A stretch of DNA of 64,000 bases, from NCBI RefSeq assembly GCF_003790525.1, contig NZ_CP033635.1, one strand, 5' to 3'. The first letter of the stretch is position 1. Every line of letters starts with the position of its first letter. This document shows positions 12,469 to 17,544 of this stretch, piece after piece. This DNA is from Escherichia coli. GTDB taxonomy: Bacteria > Pseudomonadota > Gammaproteobacteria > Enterobacterales > Enterobacteriaceae. The translations under genes and the position numbers were made by a program. The notes under the pieces were generated by a model. It ran no database searches. It was given only the letters and a program-made list of their open reading frames with translations, and was not told the DNA's origin.

Positions 12469-12882
12469 ATGAAGGAATTATTGCTGTTATCGGTATTTTT
12501 GATATCCGCTTGCTCGACATCCTATGATGTTTATGACGGTGTTGATAAGGCATATTGCGACAAAGTTAAAATGGATTTTTCTCTTGCCAAGACGGCGAAG
12601 GATAGTTGTATTGATCACTACGTCAAGACTTATACCAAGCCAGCCTCATCGGCATCTGATATTGCTGAAGGTGCTGTGTTTGAGTGTAACAAGGTGATAT
12701 CCATCGCAGCGAGTTCTTCATACGATGCTGCTGTATGTGCAATGGCTGAAAGAAACGGCATGTCAGTGCAAAAAATTAATAGCATGATAAGCAGTAATGA
12801 CGAAGCCAAAATAAGAACTGATATCAGCTCGGTGAAAAAAGATGCCATGAACAGAGTTGTAAAATATCAGTCATCTTTATAA
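12469..12882 (+). CDS. Prophage lipoprotein (signal peptide with lipobox L-I-S-A-C), 137 aa, AT-rich gene
   Basis: N-terminus MKELLLLSVFLISAC read directly; AAGGA RBS; sits at the start of the accessory island. Confidence 0.65.
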   Translation: MKELLLLSVFLISACSTSYDVYDGVDKAYCDKVKMDFSLAKTAKDSCIDHYVKTYTKPASSASDIAEGAVFECNKVISIAASSSYDAAVCAMAERNGMSVQKINSMISSNDEAKIRTDISSVKKDAMNRVVKYQSSL

Positions 12883-12897
12883 GTCGTGACATGTCAC

Positions 12898-12922
12898 AGG
12901 CCGCTTTCGCGGCCTTGTTTTT
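12898..12922 (+). terminator. Intrinsic terminator of the structural operon / lipoprotein gene
   Basis: AGGCCGC-TTTC-GCGGCCT hairpin followed by TGTTTTT. Confidence 0.6.
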
Positions 12923-13082
12923 AACGAATGCCACCGCCACCCGGGCGGGAATCCGCAGAACGCCCACCGCAGCGGGAGCCGTCAGCAGCAGTGTCGCTGT
13001 CGTGCTGACAACGACCGGCAAAGGCCTGAGTTGAAGCTACCAGAGACAACAAAACGAACAGTGCAGCAAATGCTTTTTTCAT
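12921..13082 (-). CDS. Candidate small secreted peptide (53 aa, Sec signal MKKAFAALFVLLSLVASTQAFA, two Cys)
   Basis: Internal ATG of the 77-aa ORF; convincing signal peptide but weak RBS; possible TTGACG / TATAGA promoter just upstream. Confidence 0.3.
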   Translation of the reverse strand: MKKAFAALFVLLSLVASTQAFAGRCQHDSDTAADGSRCGGRSADSRPGGGGIR

Positions 13083-13154
13083 TGTGAAATTTCCATCTAT
13101 AAGCCACCTCAATGTGGCGTCAATGAGTGTAGCACTGACTTTTGTTTCGCCCAC

Positions 13155-13176
13155 AAAAAAGCCCGCAGCGCGGGCT
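13155..13176 (-). terminator. Intrinsic terminator of the cargo operon
   Basis: AGCCCGC-GCU-GCGGGCU hairpin followed by six U on the - strand; overlaps the stop codon at 13175. Confidence 0.6.
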
Positions 13177-13615
13177 ATTCTTCTTCATCATTAAAAAGCG
13201 GATTGTTGTTTCCATCTGATGAAAGGAAAGGTATGTGTTCTCTTGAAAATCCAACAATGACAATTTCATTATCATTTTTTGCATAATGAATGCATTCATT
13301 AGAATGCCTTCCGCCAGGGTTGAAATTTAAGTTAATGGTATAATTCTTAAATGTGTTTGGATACCATGTTGGCCCACAATGATAATGCCAATAATTCTCT
13401 TGCTCATAATTGTCTGAGCCGGGAATTTTATCATGGTTATCATCAACCCACGAGGGCTTGTTTTTTCCAACAAGCGCCCTTCCATTGGCAACATCCTCTA
13501 AAAAACTTTGTATGATTTTTATTTCATCATCAGTAAGGAAAGGTCCGTCTACAGCGAAAGGGGTGTTGCTTTCCCCATGTAGAAAACTATTAGATATTCT
13601 AATGTTAAACTTCAA
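13175..13615 (-). CDS. Hypothetical cargo protein, about 146 aa, low GC, Asn-rich, no recognised domain
   Basis: Probable TTG start at 13615 with AGGAG RBS 6 nt upstream, 20 nt after the stop of the 55-aa ORF; ORF track shows a longer frame from 13756 that overlaps the upstream gene. Confidence 0.5.
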   Translation of the reverse strand: MKFNIRISNSFLHGESNTPFAVDGPFLTDDEIKIIQSFLEDVANGRALVGKNKPSWVDDNHDKIPGSDNYEQENYWHYHCGPTWYPNTFKNYTINLNFNPGGRHSNECIHYAKNDNEIVIVGFSREHIPFLSSDGNNNPLFNDEEE

Positions 13616-13635
13616 GGAAAACTCCTGATGTGCTT

Positions 13636-13803
13636 CTATTTGGAGCGAAATGCCGCCTTGAAGTCGCTGAAAGATGTTCCTGTCTGGTAAACCATATCCT
13701 TGTCGCGCTCTTTGCTTGCGCGGCCAAGCATAACTTTTCCAATGACATCCCAGCATTGCTTGGCTTGTTCATTGTGCTGAGTACGATTTTTCAACGCTGT
13801 CAT
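13636..13803 (-). CDS. Small protein (55 aa), first gene of the cargo operon; possible regulator or antitoxin-like partner
   Basis: ATG with AGGAGG RBS 6 nt upstream, placed immediately downstream of promoter P_A; translated by hand. Confidence 0.5.
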   Translation of the reverse strand: MTALKNRTQHNEQAKQCWDVIGKVMLGRASKERDKDMVYQTGTSFSDFKAAFRSK

Positions 13804-13815
13804 ATCGCGCCTCCT

Positions 13816-13858
13816 TTACCTTTAAGGTAATAGTACGCTATTCACCCACAGTCTGCAA
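13816..13858 (-). promoter_or_regulatory. Promoter P_A (-35 TTGCAG at 13853-13858, 17-bp spacer, -10 TACTAT at 13830-13835) with operator copy A (TTACC-TTTAA-GGTAA, 13816..13830)
   Basis: Hexamers and the 15-bp palindrome read directly; the operator abuts the -10 and the RBS. Confidence 0.55.
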
Positions 13859-13902: not shown

Positions 13903-14589
13903 TCAGAAGAACCCAGCCTTGTCGTTGATGTACTCCGCGTGGGTCTGGATATCACGCAGGCATTTGCTCACACCAACAATGTAGCAGAACATGGTGGTCA
14001 GCTCCGCCGCCGCGCCCGATACGTCGTGCCCGTCTTCCTGTAACTGGTTCAGCAGATTCATCAGCAGTGAGTTCTCCGTCAGGCCGAGAACACCAGACGG
14101 AGAATGAATCAGGCTGCGGTAGCCGGGCTTCAGTGGGGCACTGTAGGTTTTGTTCTCTATCTTCATTGCCTGCATCACTGCTGATGCTGTGGCGTTGGCT
14201 ACCTGGTCGGCAACTATCTTTATGCGTTCTTCCTGCGGGAGCGAGTTTTTAATGTAACTTCCGGTGCGGCGGATCTGAGGAAGAACCTCACCTGTAACCC
14301 ATTTACGAAAGCGGTAGGGGATAGTGCCTGGTGTCACTGCGTCGCGGCAGCGGAGGATCAGTGTGTAGAGGCCTGACTCGTTGATAATATTGGTTTCACC
14401 TTGACGGCCTAAGTTAAATTTAGCCCTTTCATCATCATCAAGAGATTTTATTGACATAGTGGGGTTTGTCAGTTGAAGAGCTTTAATAACGTCTTTGGCA
14501 ACAAACCAAGGATTTCCATCAATAACAATGGCTCGAATGGTGGCTTCTGATTCAAAATGAAAAACAGATGGGGTTACGTTAGCAGTCAT
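13903..14589 (-). CDS. Antirepressor-like protein with N-terminal BRO-N / AntA-type domain, 228 aa
   Basis: Motifs FHFE...IR..IDG.PWFVAKDV and ESGLY.LI read in the translation (BRO-N family, from memory); start set at ATG 14589 with AAGGTGA RBS rather than ORF-track 14742, which has no RBS and a Gly/Cys-rich non-protein-like extension. Confidence 0.8.
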   Translation of the reverse strand: MTANVTPSVFHFESEATIRAIVIDGNPWFVAKDVIKALQLTNPTMSIKSLDDDERAKFNLGRQGETNIINESGLYTLILRCRDAVTPGTIPYRFRKWVTGEVLPQIRRTGSYIKNSLPQEERIKIVADQVANATASAVMQAMKIENKTYSAPLKPGYRSLIHSPSGVLGLTENSLLMNLLNQLQEDGHDVSGAAAELTTMFCYIVGVSKCLRDIQTHAEYINDKAGFF

Positions 14590-14742
14590 AGTGATCACCT
14601 TTGTAGTTAGGTTAATCACCACTACCGACGCCAATCGGTTGGTGGTGAACTGTGCAGGGTTGGCGTAACCGGCTACAAAGGACCCGGCGCACCTTTCGGT
14701 GCCCCCACACAGCCCACCATAGAATAGGTGCGCTTTACACAT

Positions 14743-14761
14743 AAAAAAACCGCTTATGCGG
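14743..14761 (-). terminator. Short intrinsic terminator or attenuator in the leader of the antirepressor-like gene (CCGC-AUAA-GCGG followed by seven U)
   Basis: Read on the - strand; stem is only 4-5 bp, so call is tentative. Confidence 0.4.
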
Positions 14762-14855
14762 CATATGTGCCTCTGTAGTAACCCGGGACGCCAATCCCGG
14801 CACTGGATTTTGCCAGTGCCCGATTACTATGGCACAAGAGGAGTGCGATGTAAAT

Positions 14856-14898
14856 TTACCGAAAAGGTAATAATAAACACTCTACTTGGTAATTGCAA
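14856..14898 (-). promoter_or_regulatory. Promoter P_B (-35 TTGCAA at 14893-14898, 17-bp spacer, -10 TATTAT at 14870-14875) with operator copy B (TTACC-GAAAA-GGTAA, 14856..14870)
   Basis: Near-consensus sigma70 hexamers with exact 17-bp spacing; palindrome overlaps the -10 and start site. Confidence 0.6.
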
Positions 14899-14901
14899 AC
14901 C

Positions 14902-15159
14902 TTATCTGGTTTGTTTTCGTAATTGTTCGGCACAATAGTCGAGATGTGTTTGCAGATCCCGCATAGACATCTGTGAGCTGGTGACGTAGTTAATCAGTGC
15001 AGTCAGTTCGGCAAGTGGGCCATCGACATTAAATCCATCCTTATCGAGATCCCGGAGTAATTTCATCAAGTGCGATCCCTCCACCAGTGACCTGACGCCT
15101 CCCGGCGTGTGAATCCTTTCGGTAAATCCGTCTTCCAGTGGATAGTGATACTGCTGCAT
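14902..15159 (-). CDS. Small protein (85 aa) paralogous to the C-terminal domain of the adjacent antirepressor-like protein; candidate SOS-controlled small antirepressor
   Basis: By-eye alignment with the last ~70 aa of the 228-aa protein shows about 40 percent identity; ATG 15159 with GGAG RBS; LexA box directly upstream. Confidence 0.6.
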   Translation of the reverse strand: MQQYHYPLEDGFTERIHTPGGVRSLVEGSHLMKLLRDLDKDGFNVDGPLAELTALINYVTSSQMSMRDLQTHLDYCAEQLRKQTR

Positions 15160-15178: not shown

Positions 15179-15198
15179 AACTGTATATTTATACAGTA
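15179..15198. promoter_or_regulatory. LexA (SOS) box AACTGTATATTTATACAGTA
   Basis: 18 of 20 positions match the consensus TACTGTATATATATACAGTA including both CTGT and ACAG arms; located immediately upstream of the 85-aa gene. Confidence 0.65.
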
Positions 15199-15235: not shown

Positions 15236-15250
15236 TTACCCGAAAGGTAA
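15236..15250. promoter_or_regulatory. Operator copy C (TTACC-CGAAA-GGTAA) in the divergent region between the 85-aa gene and the tailspike gene, next to a TTGCAA hexamer (15229-15234)
   Basis: Third copy of the 15-bp palindrome; promoter partner hexamers not clearly assignable. Confidence 0.45.
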
Positions 15251-15354: not shown

Positions 15355-17544
15355 ATGACGGTCTCAACCGAAGTTGACCACAACGAATACACCGGTAACG
15401 GCGTTACGACATCATTTCCGTATACCTTCCGTATTTTCAAAAAAACCGACCTGGTTGTTCAGGTGTCTGACCTGAACGGGAACGTAACAGAATTGGTTCT
15501 GGATACCGGTTATAAGGTAACTGGAGCGGGCACTTATAGTGGCGGTGAAGTGGTTCTCCAGTCGCCGCTTGCTGCTGGCTGGCGAATTACGATAGAGCGT
15601 GTGCTTGATGTGGTGCAGGAGACTGATCTTCGCAATCAGGGAAAATTTTTCCCCGAAGTTCATGAAGATGCATTTGACTACCTGACGATGCTGATCCAGC
15701 GATGTTTTGGGTGGTTCAGACGTGCATTGATGAAACCATCTTTGCTTGCAAAATATTACGATGCAAAGCAAAACAAAATTTCTAACCTTGCAGATCCATC
15801 ATTTGAGCAGGACGCTGTAAATAATCGCTCAATGCGTAATTATGTCGATGCTGCAATCGCCGGGGTTGTTGGTGGTTTTGGTTGGTTTATACCGTCAGGA
15901 AGCGGGGCAAGACAACGAACATTTCAAAGCAAAATGAGGGATATAATTTCTCCTTGTGATTACGAAGATAATATTTTTATGATTAAGGAGTTGATATCCA
16001 AAGGCAAAAATGCCGCTGTTTTTAACTCATATTATACTTTTGTTATTACTGTTGGCGAATGGGGTGATTTCCCTACACTCAAAGATGCAATCATTGCAGC
16101 CCAGTCAATGAGACCTATGTGGGATGGTGGTAATGCTTTCTGCGAAATAAGAATTAAGACCGGGCATATTATCAACTATCAAATTGAATTCAGTTCAGGT
16201 GTTGATTTGTCTTGGATTAAAATAACATCAGAAGACTCAGTGGTTTTCTCTGACACTCGTTTGTTTACTAAAATCGTTAGAACGTATTACGAATACAAGT
16301 ATTTATTTTACATTTGCGATGCAGCAAAAAGTCCTGTATTTGCTATTCAGATCGAAGAAAATAGAGATGATAGCGATGTTTGTGCATTTATTGTAACTCA
16401 AAAAGCTGAACTTAATTTCTATCCGTATTCAGGTGCTCGAAAGTTCTACGTTGGAATTCATGGTAGTTTTGGTGCAAAAATTAGTGCATATCATACCGGA
16501 TGTGCTCCTGATGAGGAAAGTGTTGCTGCATATATGCCAGAAGGGTATTACGTATGTGATTTTTCTTATAGCAGATACTCTTCCCTGCAACTGGTAAATA
16601 ATGTCAAGGCATCAATGCCTGTAAGCAAGTTTGAACGGTGCACAGAGAGTACGGTTGCGTCAGTTAATTGTATTTATAATGTTAAAGCAGATTTTCAGGG
16701 GTCAAGTGCAAGCTATTGTTATATAGGATGGAATGTAAGAGATGGTTCAAATGTTAATATACGCGACCATAAAACTATACATTGCTCATATCGTGGATTA
16801 ACCTGCATTCATACAGCATATGTTGATGCAAGACGACATGACGTTGAAGAAAGTGATGCAGAAACAAGTGGTAAAGTCCTTGAACCAAATATTGAAAAAG
16901 GTTTTTATGGATGTGCACTTGGTGTGCGTATTGATGGTGCGGGTTGCGTTGATGTTGCTGGTAATGATATGCGCAATTGTGGAACAGCCGTTAATGCAGA
17001 CACTGGTGCTGTTATTTCAGGAAAGGCTGTAGATATCTCAGGGGCTGAGCTGGGATTTGATTGCCATGCAGGAGCATCTGTTAATTTTCCAAGGCTATGG
17101 GGTACAGATATAAAAAAATTAATGCACCTCCAAGATGGTGTAAGGTTTAACTCTAATATTTGTCATGTATTTGGTGCAAATCCCACAAAAGATATTAGAT
17201 GGATTGATGTAGAGAGATCTGAAGCTTCTTTTATGAATGCAACGCTGGATGCAGATTCAGGATTTATTGCCGACTGTGGTAGTAGGATAACCATTGAAGG
17301 AAGTAAAGTTAAAAACCAAACAATAAGAAGTTTTTTTGGATCATATGTGGCTATAAATAATACTGTTGCTGACAGAACTTATTCAGATATAGCCGATGTT
17401 CCGCAGTTGACTATTAGTGGAGGATCTTTTATTTCTGCTACAGGATATTCTAATTCTGACTCCAGCCCTCTGAGGTTGAGCACAACACGAAATACACTTG
17501 GCGTTGGAGGAGCCATATTTTCAACCAATGGGGAAGTTTCATGA
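15355..17544 (+). CDS. Tailspike / tail fiber protein, 729 aa: conserved N-terminal virion-attachment domain plus divergent C-terminal receptor-binding part
   Basis: N-terminus carries the YTGNGVTT.F.Y.F pattern typical of podovirus tail fiber or tailspike adapters (from memory); C-terminal two thirds are AT-rich and Cys-rich; GGAG RBS 7 nt upstream. Confidence 0.7.
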   Translation: MTVSTEVDHNEYTGNGVTTSFPYTFRIFKKTDLVVQVSDLNGNVTELVLDTGYKVTGAGTYSGGEVVLQSPLAAGWRITIERVLDVVQETDLRNQGKFFPEVHEDAFDYLTMLIQRCFGWFRRALMKPSLLAKYYDAKQNKISNLADPSFEQDAVNNRSMRNYVDAAIAGVVGGFGWFIPSGSGARQRTFQSKMRDIISPCDYEDNIFMIKELISKGKNAAVFNSYYTFVITVGEWGDFPTLKDAIIAAQSMRPMWDGGNAFCEIRIKTGHIINYQIEFSSGVDLSWIKITSEDSVVFSDTRLFTKIVRTYYEYKYLFYICDAAKSPVFAIQIEENRDDSDVCAFIVTQKAELNFYPYSGARKFYVGIHGSFGAKISAYHTGCAPDEESVAAYMPEGYYVCDFSYSRYSSLQLVNNVKASMPVSKFERCTESTVASVNCIYNVKADFQGSSASYCYIGWNVRDGSNVNIRDHKTIHCSYRGLTCIHTAYVDARRHDVEESDAETSGKVLEPNIEKGFYGCALGVRIDGAGCVDVAGNDMRNCGTAVNADTGAVISGKAVDISGAELGFDCHAGASVNFPRLWGTDIKKLMHLQDGVRFNSNICHVFGANPTKDIRWIDVERSEASFMNATLDADSGFIADCGSRITIEGSKVKNQTIRSFFGSYVAINNTVADRTYSDIADVPQLTISGGSFISATGYSNSDSSPLRLSTTRNTLGVGGAIFSTNGEVS

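What the first reader, a model, noticed from the sequence alone, without database searches (positions are those of the whole stretch)
14902..15159. Stand-alone paralogue of the antirepressor C-terminal domain
Seen: the 85-aa protein (...IHTPGGVRSLVEGSHLMKLLRDLDKDGFNVDGPLAELT...LRDLQTHLDY) aligns by eye with the last ~70 residues of the BRO-N protein (...IHSPSGVLGLTENSLLMNLLNQLQEDGHDVSGAAAELT...LRDIQTHAEY) at roughly 40 percent identity. Inference: the domain exists both fused to BRO-N and free, with the free copy under LexA control; it could be the actual repressor-binding antirepressor module or a competitor of the long form.
Basis: seen in the sequence. Interest (0 to 1): 0.65.

Follow-up and report, generated by a model that had tools for sequence, protein, structure and literature searches.

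The report
Known SOS antirepressor Ant plus fused paralogue
The 85-residue gene is the already characterised LexA-controlled antirepressor Ant of epsilon15-like phages, and the neighbouring BRO-N protein really does carry a second copy of the same fold, but behind a separate small-RNA control region.

Summary
The 85-aa protein (14902..15159, minus strand) aligns with residues 147-224 of the BRO-N protein at 41% identity (E 2e-16; z = 32 against shuffles).

The short protein is not new. It is 86.7% identical to Ant of Salmonella phage SPC32H, which was crystallised with its repressor Rep (PDB 5D50). It sits in the same slot next to the tailspike gene. It has a near-consensus LexA box 22 nt upstream of its ATG, at the same position as in SPC32H. 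A Rep homologue lies in the same prophage, outside the window.

Three things go beyond the finding:
- The long form is not under LexA. It lies behind an isrK plus C4 antisense-RNA leader, as in P1 immI and Gifsy-1 isrK-anrP, and the C4 loop is complementary to its ribosome-binding site.
- The same Ant-like C-terminal domain is fused to Bro-N, AntA, Rha or ORF6N domains. The Bro-N, AntA and Rha forms I examined lie in this slot behind this leader.
- A 15-bp palindrome, probably the Rep operator, abuts both promoters.

Whether the long form binds Rep is inferred, not shown.

The parts
14902..15159 (-). ant: the 85-aa stand-alone antirepressor, orthologue of SPC32H Ant (PDB 5D50 chains E-L), phiV10 gp24 and epsilon15 gp19
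   Evidence: phmmer against PDB gives 5d50_E 'Anti-repressor protein' at E 1.4e-46. Identity to SPC32H ant is 86.7%. The position next to the tailspike gene is the same.
15179..15198 (-). LexA box TACTGTATAAATATACAGTT (core CTGT-N8-ACAG at 15181..15196), 22 nt upstream of the ant ATG
   Evidence: Found. The position is the same in SPC32H and phiV10. SPC32N has CAG changed to AAG in the homologous box.
15236..15250 (.). Palindrome TTACC-N5-GGTAA directly upstream of a TTTGCA hexamer in the ant promoter region; probable Rep operator
   Evidence: The prophage has 10 exact copies against 0.07 expected, and they cluster in the rep-cro intergenic region.
14856..14870 (.). Second copy of the palindrome, one base upstream of the -35 hexamer of the isrK promoter
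14826..14854 (-). Sigma-70-like promoter (TTTACA, 17-nt spacer, CATAGT, with TG) ending about 7 nt before the isrK 5' end
   Evidence: Consensus scan. The isrK model starts at 14819.
14743..14819 (-). isrK-type RNA (Rfam RF01394) including its intrinsic terminator (stem 14749..14762 plus a T run)
   Evidence: cmscan gives 74.7 bits against a gathering score of 50, E 4e-14, over the full model length. The terminator was found.
14638..14724 (-). C4 antisense RNA (Rfam RF01695), of the P1 c4 / P4 CI type
   Evidence: cmscan gives 79.5 bits against a gathering score of 45, E 6e-14, over the full model length.
14598..14634 (-). Predicted C4 target in the leader: TTGGCGT (14634..14628) and CTACAAAGG (14606..14598). 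The second overlaps the Shine-Dalgarno sequence of the BRO-N gene.
   Evidence: Exact complementary words were found.
13903..14589 (-). The 228-aa BRO-N::Ant-like protein (RefSeq WP_000126405.1, 'Bro-N domain-containing protein')
   Evidence: The ORF list shows a 279-aa in-frame extension that runs through the C4 RNA. That extension is not conserved in phiV10.
14278..14538 (-). Bro-N domain (residues 18-104)
   Evidence: Pfam PF02498, E 1.3e-19.
13906..14151 (-). Ant-like C-terminal domain (residues 147-228), paralogue of ant
   Evidence: BLASTP E 2e-16. 5d50_E at E 1.1e-13. In the AF2 model, pLDDT block means are 82-95 from residue 151. Foldseek hit 5d50_G has TM 0.83, rmsd 1.8 A and probability 1.00.
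13816..13830 (.). Third copy of the palindrome, between the BRO-N stop codon and the next minus-strand gene

Best explanation
The 85-aa gene is ant, the SOS-responsive antirepressor of epsilon15-like (Uetakevirus) temperate phages.

In the lysogen, LexA sits on the box overlapping the ant promoter. DNA damage removes LexA and Ant is made. By analogy with SPC32H, an Ant tetramer then binds the C-terminal tetramerisation domain of the prophage repressor Rep, splits the Rep tetramer into dimers and takes it off its operators.

The BRO-N protein downstream carries a true paralogue of this fold as its C-terminal domain. It belongs to a separate transcription unit that starts at the isrK promoter. 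Expression of that unit is gated by the isrK terminator and by a C4 antisense RNA that can pair with the ribosome-binding site. My inference is that the long protein is a second antirepressor. It would use the Ant-like domain as the part that engages Rep, and it would be released by a signal other than SOS, such as superinfection or loss of the RNA immunity.

Shown here: the homology, the LexA box, the RNA elements, the presence of Rep in the same prophage, and the domain swaps.
Taken from the literature on SPC32H: Rep binding, the tetramer and LexA control.
Inferred: that the long form binds Rep, and that Rep binds the palindromes next to both promoters.
For: Short form:
- E 1.4e-46 to PDB 5D50 chain E and 86.7% identity to SPC32H ant.
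- Same position between the virion genes and the divergent tailspike gene.
- The LexA box lies 22 nt upstream of the ATG in the window, SPC32H and phiV10.
- SPC32N differs from SPC32H by one base in that box.
- The same prophage in E. coli WWCOL-236 encodes a Rep homologue: 43% identity to SPC32H Rep, and 5D50_A at E 3.5e-42.
- All 35 phage records with an Ant-type domain are among the 37 that have a Rep homologue.
- Later papers describe Ant as a tetramer that binds two Rep dimers through the Rep C-terminal domain, and as LexA-dependent (PMC9638917, PMC9986798, PMC7380047).

Long form:
- The C-terminal domain matches Ant by sequence and by predicted fold.
- isrK and C4 lie between ant and the BRO-N gene, both above Rfam gathering scores.
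- The C4 loop is complementary to CTACAAAGG over the Shine-Dalgarno sequence.
- The same leader plus an Ant-like C-terminal domain is found with an AntA domain (L009) and a Rha domain (L010) in the same slot of related prophages.
- Natural hybrids between the two paralogues exist: P0014, and the Klebsiella Ant.
- In Gifsy-1, the isrK-controlled BRO-type protein AnrP induces the prophage (PMC4825925).
Against: - No binding or induction data exist for this prophage.
- Its Rep is only 43% identical to SPC32H Rep while Ant is 87% identical. Either the Ant-Rep contact tolerates much divergence, or the pairing has been reshuffled.
- The long form is dispensable. Phages with a 99.5%-identical Rep (PAS61, YDC107_2) lack it, and in the phiV10 reference genome it is frameshifted inside the Ant-like domain.
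- At 41% identity, the Rep-contacting residues of the long form may not be conserved. I could not map the 5D50 interface because neither the coordinates nor the primary paper were available.
- The C4-target pairing is only moderately better than shuffles for one of the two segments (44 of 500 shuffles reach it).
Confidence: 0.85

Rival explanations
1. The Ant-like domain of the long protein is only an oligomerisation module, since Ant is a tetramer. On this reading the active part is the Bro-N domain, for example through DNA binding at operators or another host or phage target, and the long protein does not touch Rep.
For: The residues invariant in both paralogues (Y4, L8, H17, P19, G21, L25, S29, M32, L35, D41, G42, V45, A50, E51, Y58, H72, Y75) could equally be core or tetramer contacts. 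N-terminal domains of this superfamily resemble DNA-binding folds: the Foldseek hits include Dachshund/Ski and Mbp1.
Against: The N-terminal domain is freely swapped (Bro-N, AntA, Rha, ORF6N) while the C-terminal domain is kept, in three cases within the same slot. That pattern points to the C-terminal domain as the phage-matched part. The domain occurs only in genomes that also carry the Rep family. Free-standing copies of the 'long-form' subtype exist at 98% identity (P0001), so this subtype works without any N-terminal domain.
Confidence: 0.2
2. The short and long forms co-assemble into mixed tetramers. One then modulates the other as a competitor or dominant-negative partner, instead of each acting separately on Rep.
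For: SPC32H Ant acts as a tetramer (PMC9638917). The two proteins share the fold. Recombinants between them are viable in nature. A transcript from the ant promoter would run into isrK with no intervening terminator, which could couple their expression.
Against: At 41% identity, hetero-oligomerisation is uncertain. Related phages do well with Ant alone (SPC32H, epsilon15, PAS61). The two genes have different control regions, which suggests they are normally made at different times.
Confidence: 0.15
3. The long form targets repressors of other, heteroimmune epsilon15-like prophages or superinfecting relatives (cross-talk or anti-immunity), not the resident Rep.
For: Trans-acting antirepressors that cross between prophages are documented in Salmonella (Lemire et al. 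2011, as summarised in PMC7380047). The two paralogues differ most in the C-terminal half, which could set a different specificity. The phiV10 depositors called the gene 'putative anti-immunity protein'.
Against: I found no second Rep type that tracks the presence of the long form. Phages with and without it share a 99.5%-identical Rep.
Confidence: 0.15
4. The similarity is chance or low-complexity, and the 85-aa ORF is not a gene.
For: None.
Against: z = 32 against shuffles. The ORF is conserved at 60-100% identity in 35 phage records. The orthologue has been crystallised.
Confidence: 0.01

Closest known systems
Ant of Salmonella phage SPC32H (Kim and Ryu 2013, J Virol 87:11775; Kim et al. 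2016, PNAS 113:E2480; PDB 5D50)
   Same: 86.7% identity over the whole length. Both are about 86 aa and stand-alone. The gene position is the same, divergent from the tailspike gene. The LexA box is at the same distance from the ATG. A Rep-family repressor is present in the same genome.
   Different: The cognate Rep here is only 43% identical to SPC32H Rep. Here ant is followed by a second, fused copy of the fold, which SPC32H lacks. No experiment has been done on this allele.
Phage P1 immI region (c4 antisense RNA - icd - ant)
   Same: A C4-family RNA lies in the leader of an antirepressor gene, with loop sequences complementary to sites upstream (inside isrK) and at the ribosome-binding site. 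In P1 this pairing blocks translation and transcription of ant (my own knowledge of Citron and Schuster 1990, not read here). A repressor operator-like palindrome at the promoter recalls C1 control of the P1 immI promoter.
   Different: There is no conserved icd-like upstream ORF. I did not compare the protein with P1 Ant. The effector domain here is the SPC32H Ant fold.
Gifsy-1 isrK - orf45 - anrP locus (Hershko-Shalev et al. 2016, PMC4825925)
   Same: [quoted passage not shown] In Gifsy-1, AnrP expression induces the prophage independently of the isrK locus.
   Different: I did not examine the AnrP sequence, so it is unknown whether it carries the Ant-like C-terminal domain; no Gifsy record appeared among the 34 phage records found with the C-terminal domain query. 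The downstream readout in Gifsy-1 is AntQ, and I did not look for a counterpart here.
Tum of coliphage 186 and GfoA/GfhA of the Gifsy prophages (LexA-controlled antirepressors)
   Same: The logic is the same: a non-cleavable repressor is inactivated by a small protein whose gene is repressed by LexA.
   Different: These are different protein families. I did not test sequence similarity here. My recollection of the Kim and Ryu 2013 abstract is that it describes Ant as structurally distinct from them.

Membership tests
SPC32H-type Ant antirepressor (short form) | Full-length sequence homology to the crystallised Ant | tested here: met
   5d50_E at E 1.4e-46, residues 2-84 against 3-85. Identity is 86.7%.
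SPC32H-type Ant antirepressor (short form) | LexA operator overlapping the promoter | tested here: met
   CTGT-N8-ACAG lies 22 nt upstream of the ATG in the window, SPC32H and phiV10. The box matches 18 of 20 consensus positions. The SPC32N mutation lies in the homologous box. LexA binding itself was not tested.
SPC32H-type Ant antirepressor (short form) | A Rep-family repressor with the C-terminal Ant-binding/tetramerisation domain in the same phage | tested here: met
   It is not in the window. It is present in the same prophage in NZ_CP178552.1: L008 34894..35478, 43% identity, with 5d50_A at E 3.5e-42 and 5d4z_A (the C-terminal domain) at E 3.6e-20.
SPC32H-type Ant antirepressor (short form) | Tetramer that binds Rep and releases it from DNA | not testable with these tools
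   This needs biochemistry. No multimer prediction or coordinates were available.
Ant fold (C-terminal domain of the long form) | Sequence and fold match to Ant | tested here: met
   BLASTP E 2e-16. phmmer to 5d50_E at E 1.1e-13. Foldseek hit 5d50_G with TM 0.83 and rmsd 1.8 A over 71 columns.
Ant fold (C-terminal domain of the long form) | Conservation of the Rep-contacting residues | not tested
   The interface residues of 5D50 could not be obtained. The primary papers are not held and no coordinates were accessible.
BRO-N family (long form) | Pfam PF02498 match | tested here: met
   E 1.3e-19, residues 18-104.
P1 immI-type RNA-controlled antirepressor module | C4-family antisense RNA in the leader | tested here: met
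   RF01695 at 79.5 bits against a gathering score of 45. It is conserved in phiV10, a Klebsiella phage, L009 and L010.
P1 immI-type RNA-controlled antirepressor module | Two C4 loop segments complementary to sites upstream and at the ribosome-binding site | tested here: met
   Exact words TTGGCGT (in isrK and in the leader) and CTACAAAGG over the Shine-Dalgarno sequence. Duplex energies are matched or beaten by 0, 6, 7 and 44 of 500 shuffles.
P1 immI-type RNA-controlled antirepressor module | Upstream coupled ORF (icd in P1, orf45 in Gifsy-1) | tested here: inconclusive
   In the window, an in-frame ORF extension runs through C4. The frame is broken in phiV10, so the extension is not conserved as coding sequence.
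Gifsy-1 isrK locus | isrK RNA with its own promoter and terminator upstream of the antirepressor gene | tested here: met
   RF01394 at 74.7 bits against a gathering score of 50. The promoter-like site ends 7 nt before the RNA start, and a terminator-like site is present.
186 Tum / Gifsy GfoA family | Sequence homology | not tested
   Treated only as a functional analogue.

The most novel reading that the evidence does not exclude
In epsilon15-like phages, the Ant fold is the phage-specific, Rep-engaging effector. It has been attached to at least four unrelated 'antirepressor' N-terminal domains (Bro-N, AntA, Rha, ORF6N); the three forms I examined sit behind the same isrK/C4 RNA gate. The prophage would then have two independent induction inputs, SOS through LexA and RNA immunity, converging on one surface of one repressor. 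Both antirepressor promoters would also be under Rep itself through the adjacent palindromes. If so, the free Ant shows that the C-terminal domain alone suffices for antirepression. That would turn the long-standing question of what the Bro-N, AntA and Rha domains contribute into a clean experiment.
Probability: 0.4. Interest if true: 0.55.

Novelty: new member of a known kind. Interest (0 to 1): 0.35.

Why it matters
The finding itself matters little. The free protein is an orthologue of a characterised and crystallised antirepressor.

It has some practical value. RefSeq calls this gene 'hypothetical protein'. PHROGs files the family (phrog_450) under 'unknown function'. Neither Pfam nor NCBIfam has a model for it. 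The region is present at 80% coverage or more in 303 of 5426 complete E. coli genomes, so a simple annotation transfer is missing.

The more interesting point is the pairing. One repressor-binding fold is present twice in one prophage, once under LexA and once under an isrK/C4 RNA gate, with swappable N-terminal domains. That offers a compact system for asking what the widespread Bro-N, AntA and Rha 'antirepressor' domains actually do, and how a prophage integrates SOS and non-SOS induction signals.

Tried and rejected
- The primary SPC32H papers (Kim and Ryu 2013; Kim et al. 2016) and the epsilon15 genome paper are not in the library. Statements about the Ant mechanism therefore rest on later papers that summarise them, on the PDB entry names, and on my own recollection of the abstracts.
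- Pfam on the 85-aa protein gave only a weak, meaningless DUF724 hit. NCBIfam gave nothing.
- A search for Rep inside the window found nothing. The window starts inside the prophage, so I took Rep from the matching complete genome instead.
- The word-indexed protein search with the C-terminal domain alone returned only short proteins. That wrongly suggested the fusion is rare. The exhaustive profile search and the full-length query corrected this.
- Whole-molecule RNA duplex energies looked implausibly large, so I discarded them in favour of segment-wise tests against shuffles.
- I considered predicting a Rep-Ant complex by fusing the chains. I did not try it, because the tool returns no coordinates or contacts.
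- I considered and rejected chance similarity.
- I considered reading the 279-aa ORF as the real gene product. I rejected it because the extension covers the C4 RNA and is frame-broken in phiV10.

Full report
**Where the window comes from**

The region around the finding is 93-97% identical to phiV10-like Escherichia phages of the genus Uetakevirus, the epsilon15 group. It is 100% identical over the 1.6 kb I queried to the chromosome of E. coli WWCOL-236, where a roughly 39-kb prophage lies next to guaA. The window begins inside that prophage in the virion genes and leaves it after the lysis genes near 19.9 kb. The immunity region therefore lies outside the window.

**Checking the observation**

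The ORF at 14902..15159 (minus strand) encodes 85 aa. It aligns without gaps with residues 147-224 of the 228-aa protein encoded at 13903..14589, which has a Pfam Bro-N domain at residues 18-104.
- Identity is 32/78 (41%), with E = 2e-16.
- The Smith-Waterman score is 165. Shuffles give 26 +/- 4, with a maximum of 62 in 2000, so z = 32.

**What the short protein is**

A search of PDB sequences returns one hit: chain E of 5D50, named 'Anti-repressor protein', 86 aa, E = 1.4e-46. This is Ant of Salmonella phage SPC32H. Identity is 86.7%.

In SPC32H the gene annotated ant lies between a small membrane-protein gene and the divergent tailspike gene. That is the same place as phiV10 gp24, epsilon15 gp19 and the ORF here.

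Later papers describe the system as follows.
- Rep of SPC32H binds DNA as a tetramer. [quoted passage not shown]
- The Rep C-terminal tetramerisation domain is also the Ant-binding domain (PMC9986798).
- Ant is made after LexA self-cleavage (PMC7380047).

The LexA box is visible directly. CTGTATATTTATACAG lies at 15181..15196, 22 nt upstream of the ATG. Boxes sit at the same distance in SPC32H and phiV10, and a Klebsiella relative has a one-mismatch version at the same place.

SPC32N is the sister isolate of SPC32H. From my recollection of Kim and Ryu 2013, it makes Ant constitutively. It differs from SPC32H in this region by one base, which changes the CAG half of that box to AAG.

The same prophage encodes a Rep homologue.
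- It lies at L008 34894..35478 and is 194 aa.
- It is 43% identical to SPC32H Rep.
- 5D50_A matches at E 3.5e-42, and the C-terminal domain structure 5D4Z matches at E 3.6e-20.

In the phage collection, all 35 records with an Ant-type domain are among the 37 with a Rep homologue.

The short protein is therefore an orthologue of a known, structurally characterised, LexA-controlled antirepressor. Databases have not caught up.
- RefSeq calls it 'hypothetical protein'.
- PHROGs lists phrog_450 as 'unknown function'.
- Pfam and NCBIfam have no model.

**What the long protein is**

Its C-terminal domain matches 5D50 chain E at E 1.1e-13.

An AlphaFold2 model built on a 43-sequence alignment shows a confident N-terminal domain and a poorly defined segment across roughly residues 111-150 that is partly modelled as helix. 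The C-terminal helical domain is confident, with pLDDT block means of 82-95 from residue 151. Foldseek aligns that domain to 5d50_G with target-normalised TM 0.83, rmsd 1.8 A and probability 1.00.

The gene is not under LexA. Apart from the ant box, the only other CTGT-N8-ACAG matches in the window are at 388 and 63247.

Instead, the 310 nt between ant and the BRO-N start codon hold two Rfam families above their gathering scores:
- isrK (RF01394) at 14819..14743, 74.7 bits.
- C4 antisense RNA (RF01695) at 14724..14638, 79.5 bits.

A promoter-like site (TTTACA, 17-nt spacer, CATAGT, with a TG extension) ends 7 nt before the isrK start. The isrK model ends in a terminator-like hairpin plus a T run.

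Two unpaired segments of C4 have exact complements in two places. One is inside isrK. The other is in the leader just before the BRO-N gene, where CTACAAAGG (14606..14598) covers the Shine-Dalgarno sequence.

This is the layout of the P1 immI region, where c4 RNA blocks icd-ant expression (established knowledge, not read here). It is also the layout of the Gifsy-1 isrK-orf45-anrP locus. There the long transcript is translationally silent, IsrK acts on it in trans, and AnrP induces the prophage (PMC4825925).

The isrK-C4 leader occurs in 234 phage records, including many Stx phages and APSE.

**How the two copies relate across genomes**

An exhaustive profile search of 1.84 billion representative proteins finds only 64 clusters with this domain at E <= 0.001, so the family is narrow. 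Most are free proteins of 80-100 aa. The longer ones carry the domain at the C-terminus of Bro-N, Phage_pRha, AntA or ORF6N domains.

I examined the genomic context of two of the non-Bro-N forms. The AntA form (L009) and a Rha form (L010) lie in epsilon15-like prophages, in the same slot next to ant and the tailspike gene, behind the same isrK-C4 leader. I did not examine the context of the ORF6N form (P0066).

Full-length Bro-N fusions at 67-100% identity are common in Escherichia, Salmonella, Klebsiella, Enterobacter, Citrobacter and Raoultella. The 1.6-kb region is present at 80% coverage or more in 303 of 5426 complete E. coli genomes.

The long form is optional.
- SPC32H, epsilon15, PAS61, BUCT554 and BUCT711 have only ant.
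- PAS61 has a Rep that is 99.5% identical to the one here.
- In the phiV10 reference genome the long gene is frameshifted inside the Ant-like domain and is annotated as gp23 plus gp22.

Free-standing copies of the 'long-form' subtype also exist.
- A 97-aa protein, 98% identical to the C-terminal domain, lies beside the integrase of another epsilon15-like prophage.
- A 95-aa protein lies in a small Klebsiella island with an AlpA-like gene and HicAB.

Natural hybrids occur between the two subtypes. P0014 has an Ant-type first half and a long-form-type second half. The Klebsiella Ant carries the DGHDVSGAAAEL motif of the long-form type.

**A regulatory site seen on the way**

A 15-bp palindrome, TTACC-N5-GGTAA, occurs 10 times exactly in this prophage (14 times with one mismatch or fewer) and 10 times in SPC32H. 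Chance expectation is 0.07.
- Copies cluster between rep and the divergent cro-like gene. This prophage has one exact site and one one-mismatch site there, plus a weaker third match that I picked out by eye in the sequence. SPC32H has two adjacent sites.
- Other copies lie downstream of rep and in front of the replication and virion gene blocks.
- In the window, one copy abuts a TTTGCA hexamer upstream of ant (15236..15250).
- One sits a single base from the -35 hexamer of the isrK promoter (14856..14870).
- One follows the BRO-N gene (13816..13830).

The position is conserved in SPC32H, phiV10 and the Klebsiella phage while the 5-nt spacer varies. The putative recognition helix of Rep (NLVNRW) is conserved between the two 43%-identical Reps.

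I infer that this is the Rep operator and that Rep also controls both antirepressor promoters. I could not check this against the primary papers.

**Most likely mechanism**

In the lysogen, LexA (and probably Rep) keeps ant off. The isrK terminator and C4 RNA keep the long gene untranslated.

DNA damage removes LexA. Ant tetramers then bind the Rep C-terminal domain and take Rep off its operators.

The long protein most likely brings the same fold to bear on Rep under a different signal, by analogy with P1 Ant and Gifsy-1 AnrP. Its N-terminal domain adds something still unknown.

No terminator-like site was found between the ant stop codon and isrK. SOS-driven transcripts should therefore extend into isrK, which could link the two inputs. 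This last point is speculation.

**Verdict**

The fused paralogue, its RNA gate and the domain swaps are a modest extension of known biology and are not categorically new.

Noticed in passing
window 14638..14819 (minus strand): isrK (RF01394) and C4 antisense RNA (RF01695) lie in tandem between ant and the BRO-N gene. The same pair precedes the AntA- and Rha-fused versions in other prophages, and it occurs in 234 phage records, including many Stx phages.
   Followed up: yes
window 13816..13830, 14856..14870, 15236..15250; L008 and L002 genome-wide: The palindrome TTACC-N5-GGTAA is present 10 times in each epsilon15-like genome against 0.07 expected. Copies cluster in the rep-cro region and sit at most promoter regions. 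It is probably the Rep operator, in a distributed P1-like operator set.
   Followed up: partly
L001 3012..3691 (phiV10 gp22/gp23): In the phiV10 reference genome the BRO-N::Ant-like gene is frameshifted inside the Ant-like domain and is annotated as two genes. This is either a real pseudogene or a sequencing error.
   Followed up: partly
L006 3001..3294; L003 3001..3288: Extra free-standing copies of the 'long-form' subtype exist. A 97-aa gene, 98% identical to the C-terminal domain, lies beside the integrase of another E. coli epsilon15-like prophage. A 95-aa gene lies in a small Klebsiella island with AlpA-like and HicAB genes near a tRNA, possibly a satellite that uses it against a helper prophage.
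   Followed up: partly
P0014; L007 864..1124: Natural recombinants exist between the two paralogues: one with an Ant-type N-half and a long-form-type C-half, and a Klebsiella Ant carrying the DGHDVSGAAAEL motif. This implies gene conversion between the copies.
   Followed up: no
L008 34894..35478 versus L002 33739..34335: Between this prophage and SPC32H, Ant is 87% identical but Rep only 43%. Either the antirepressor is much more conserved than its target, or the two genes have been reassorted.
   Followed up: partly
window 13903..14742 (minus strand): The longest ORF (279 aa) extends in frame through the C4 RNA. Many metagenome gene calls use this 279-aa version, so part of the RNA gene is being annotated as protein.
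   Followed up: partly
window 14902..15159: There is an annotation gap. RefSeq calls ant 'hypothetical protein', PHROGs phrog_450 is 'unknown function', and there is no Pfam or NCBIfam model, although the orthologue has been crystallised.
   Followed up: yes
window 12469..13803: Four small cargo genes of unknown function lie between the BRO-N gene and the 824-aa virion protein gene: 55 aa, 146 aa and a 53-aa membrane protein on the minus strand, and a 137-aa lipoprotein-like protein on the plus strand. The first is preceded by a copy of the palindrome.
   Followed up: partly
L007 1215..1472: In a Klebsiella relative, an 85-aa ORF lies between ant and isrK. Going by its length and N-terminal sequence alone, it resembles the DUF1902 gene that sits next to a HicA toxin gene in L003, so it may be a HicB-type antitoxin; I did not scan it.
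   Followed up: no
window 15355..17544 versus L008 4271..6286: The tailspike ORF in the window is 729 aa, but the RefSeq CDS in the otherwise identical strain maps to a 671-aa product. The 3' end of the tailspike gene may differ between the window and that record.
   Followed up: no
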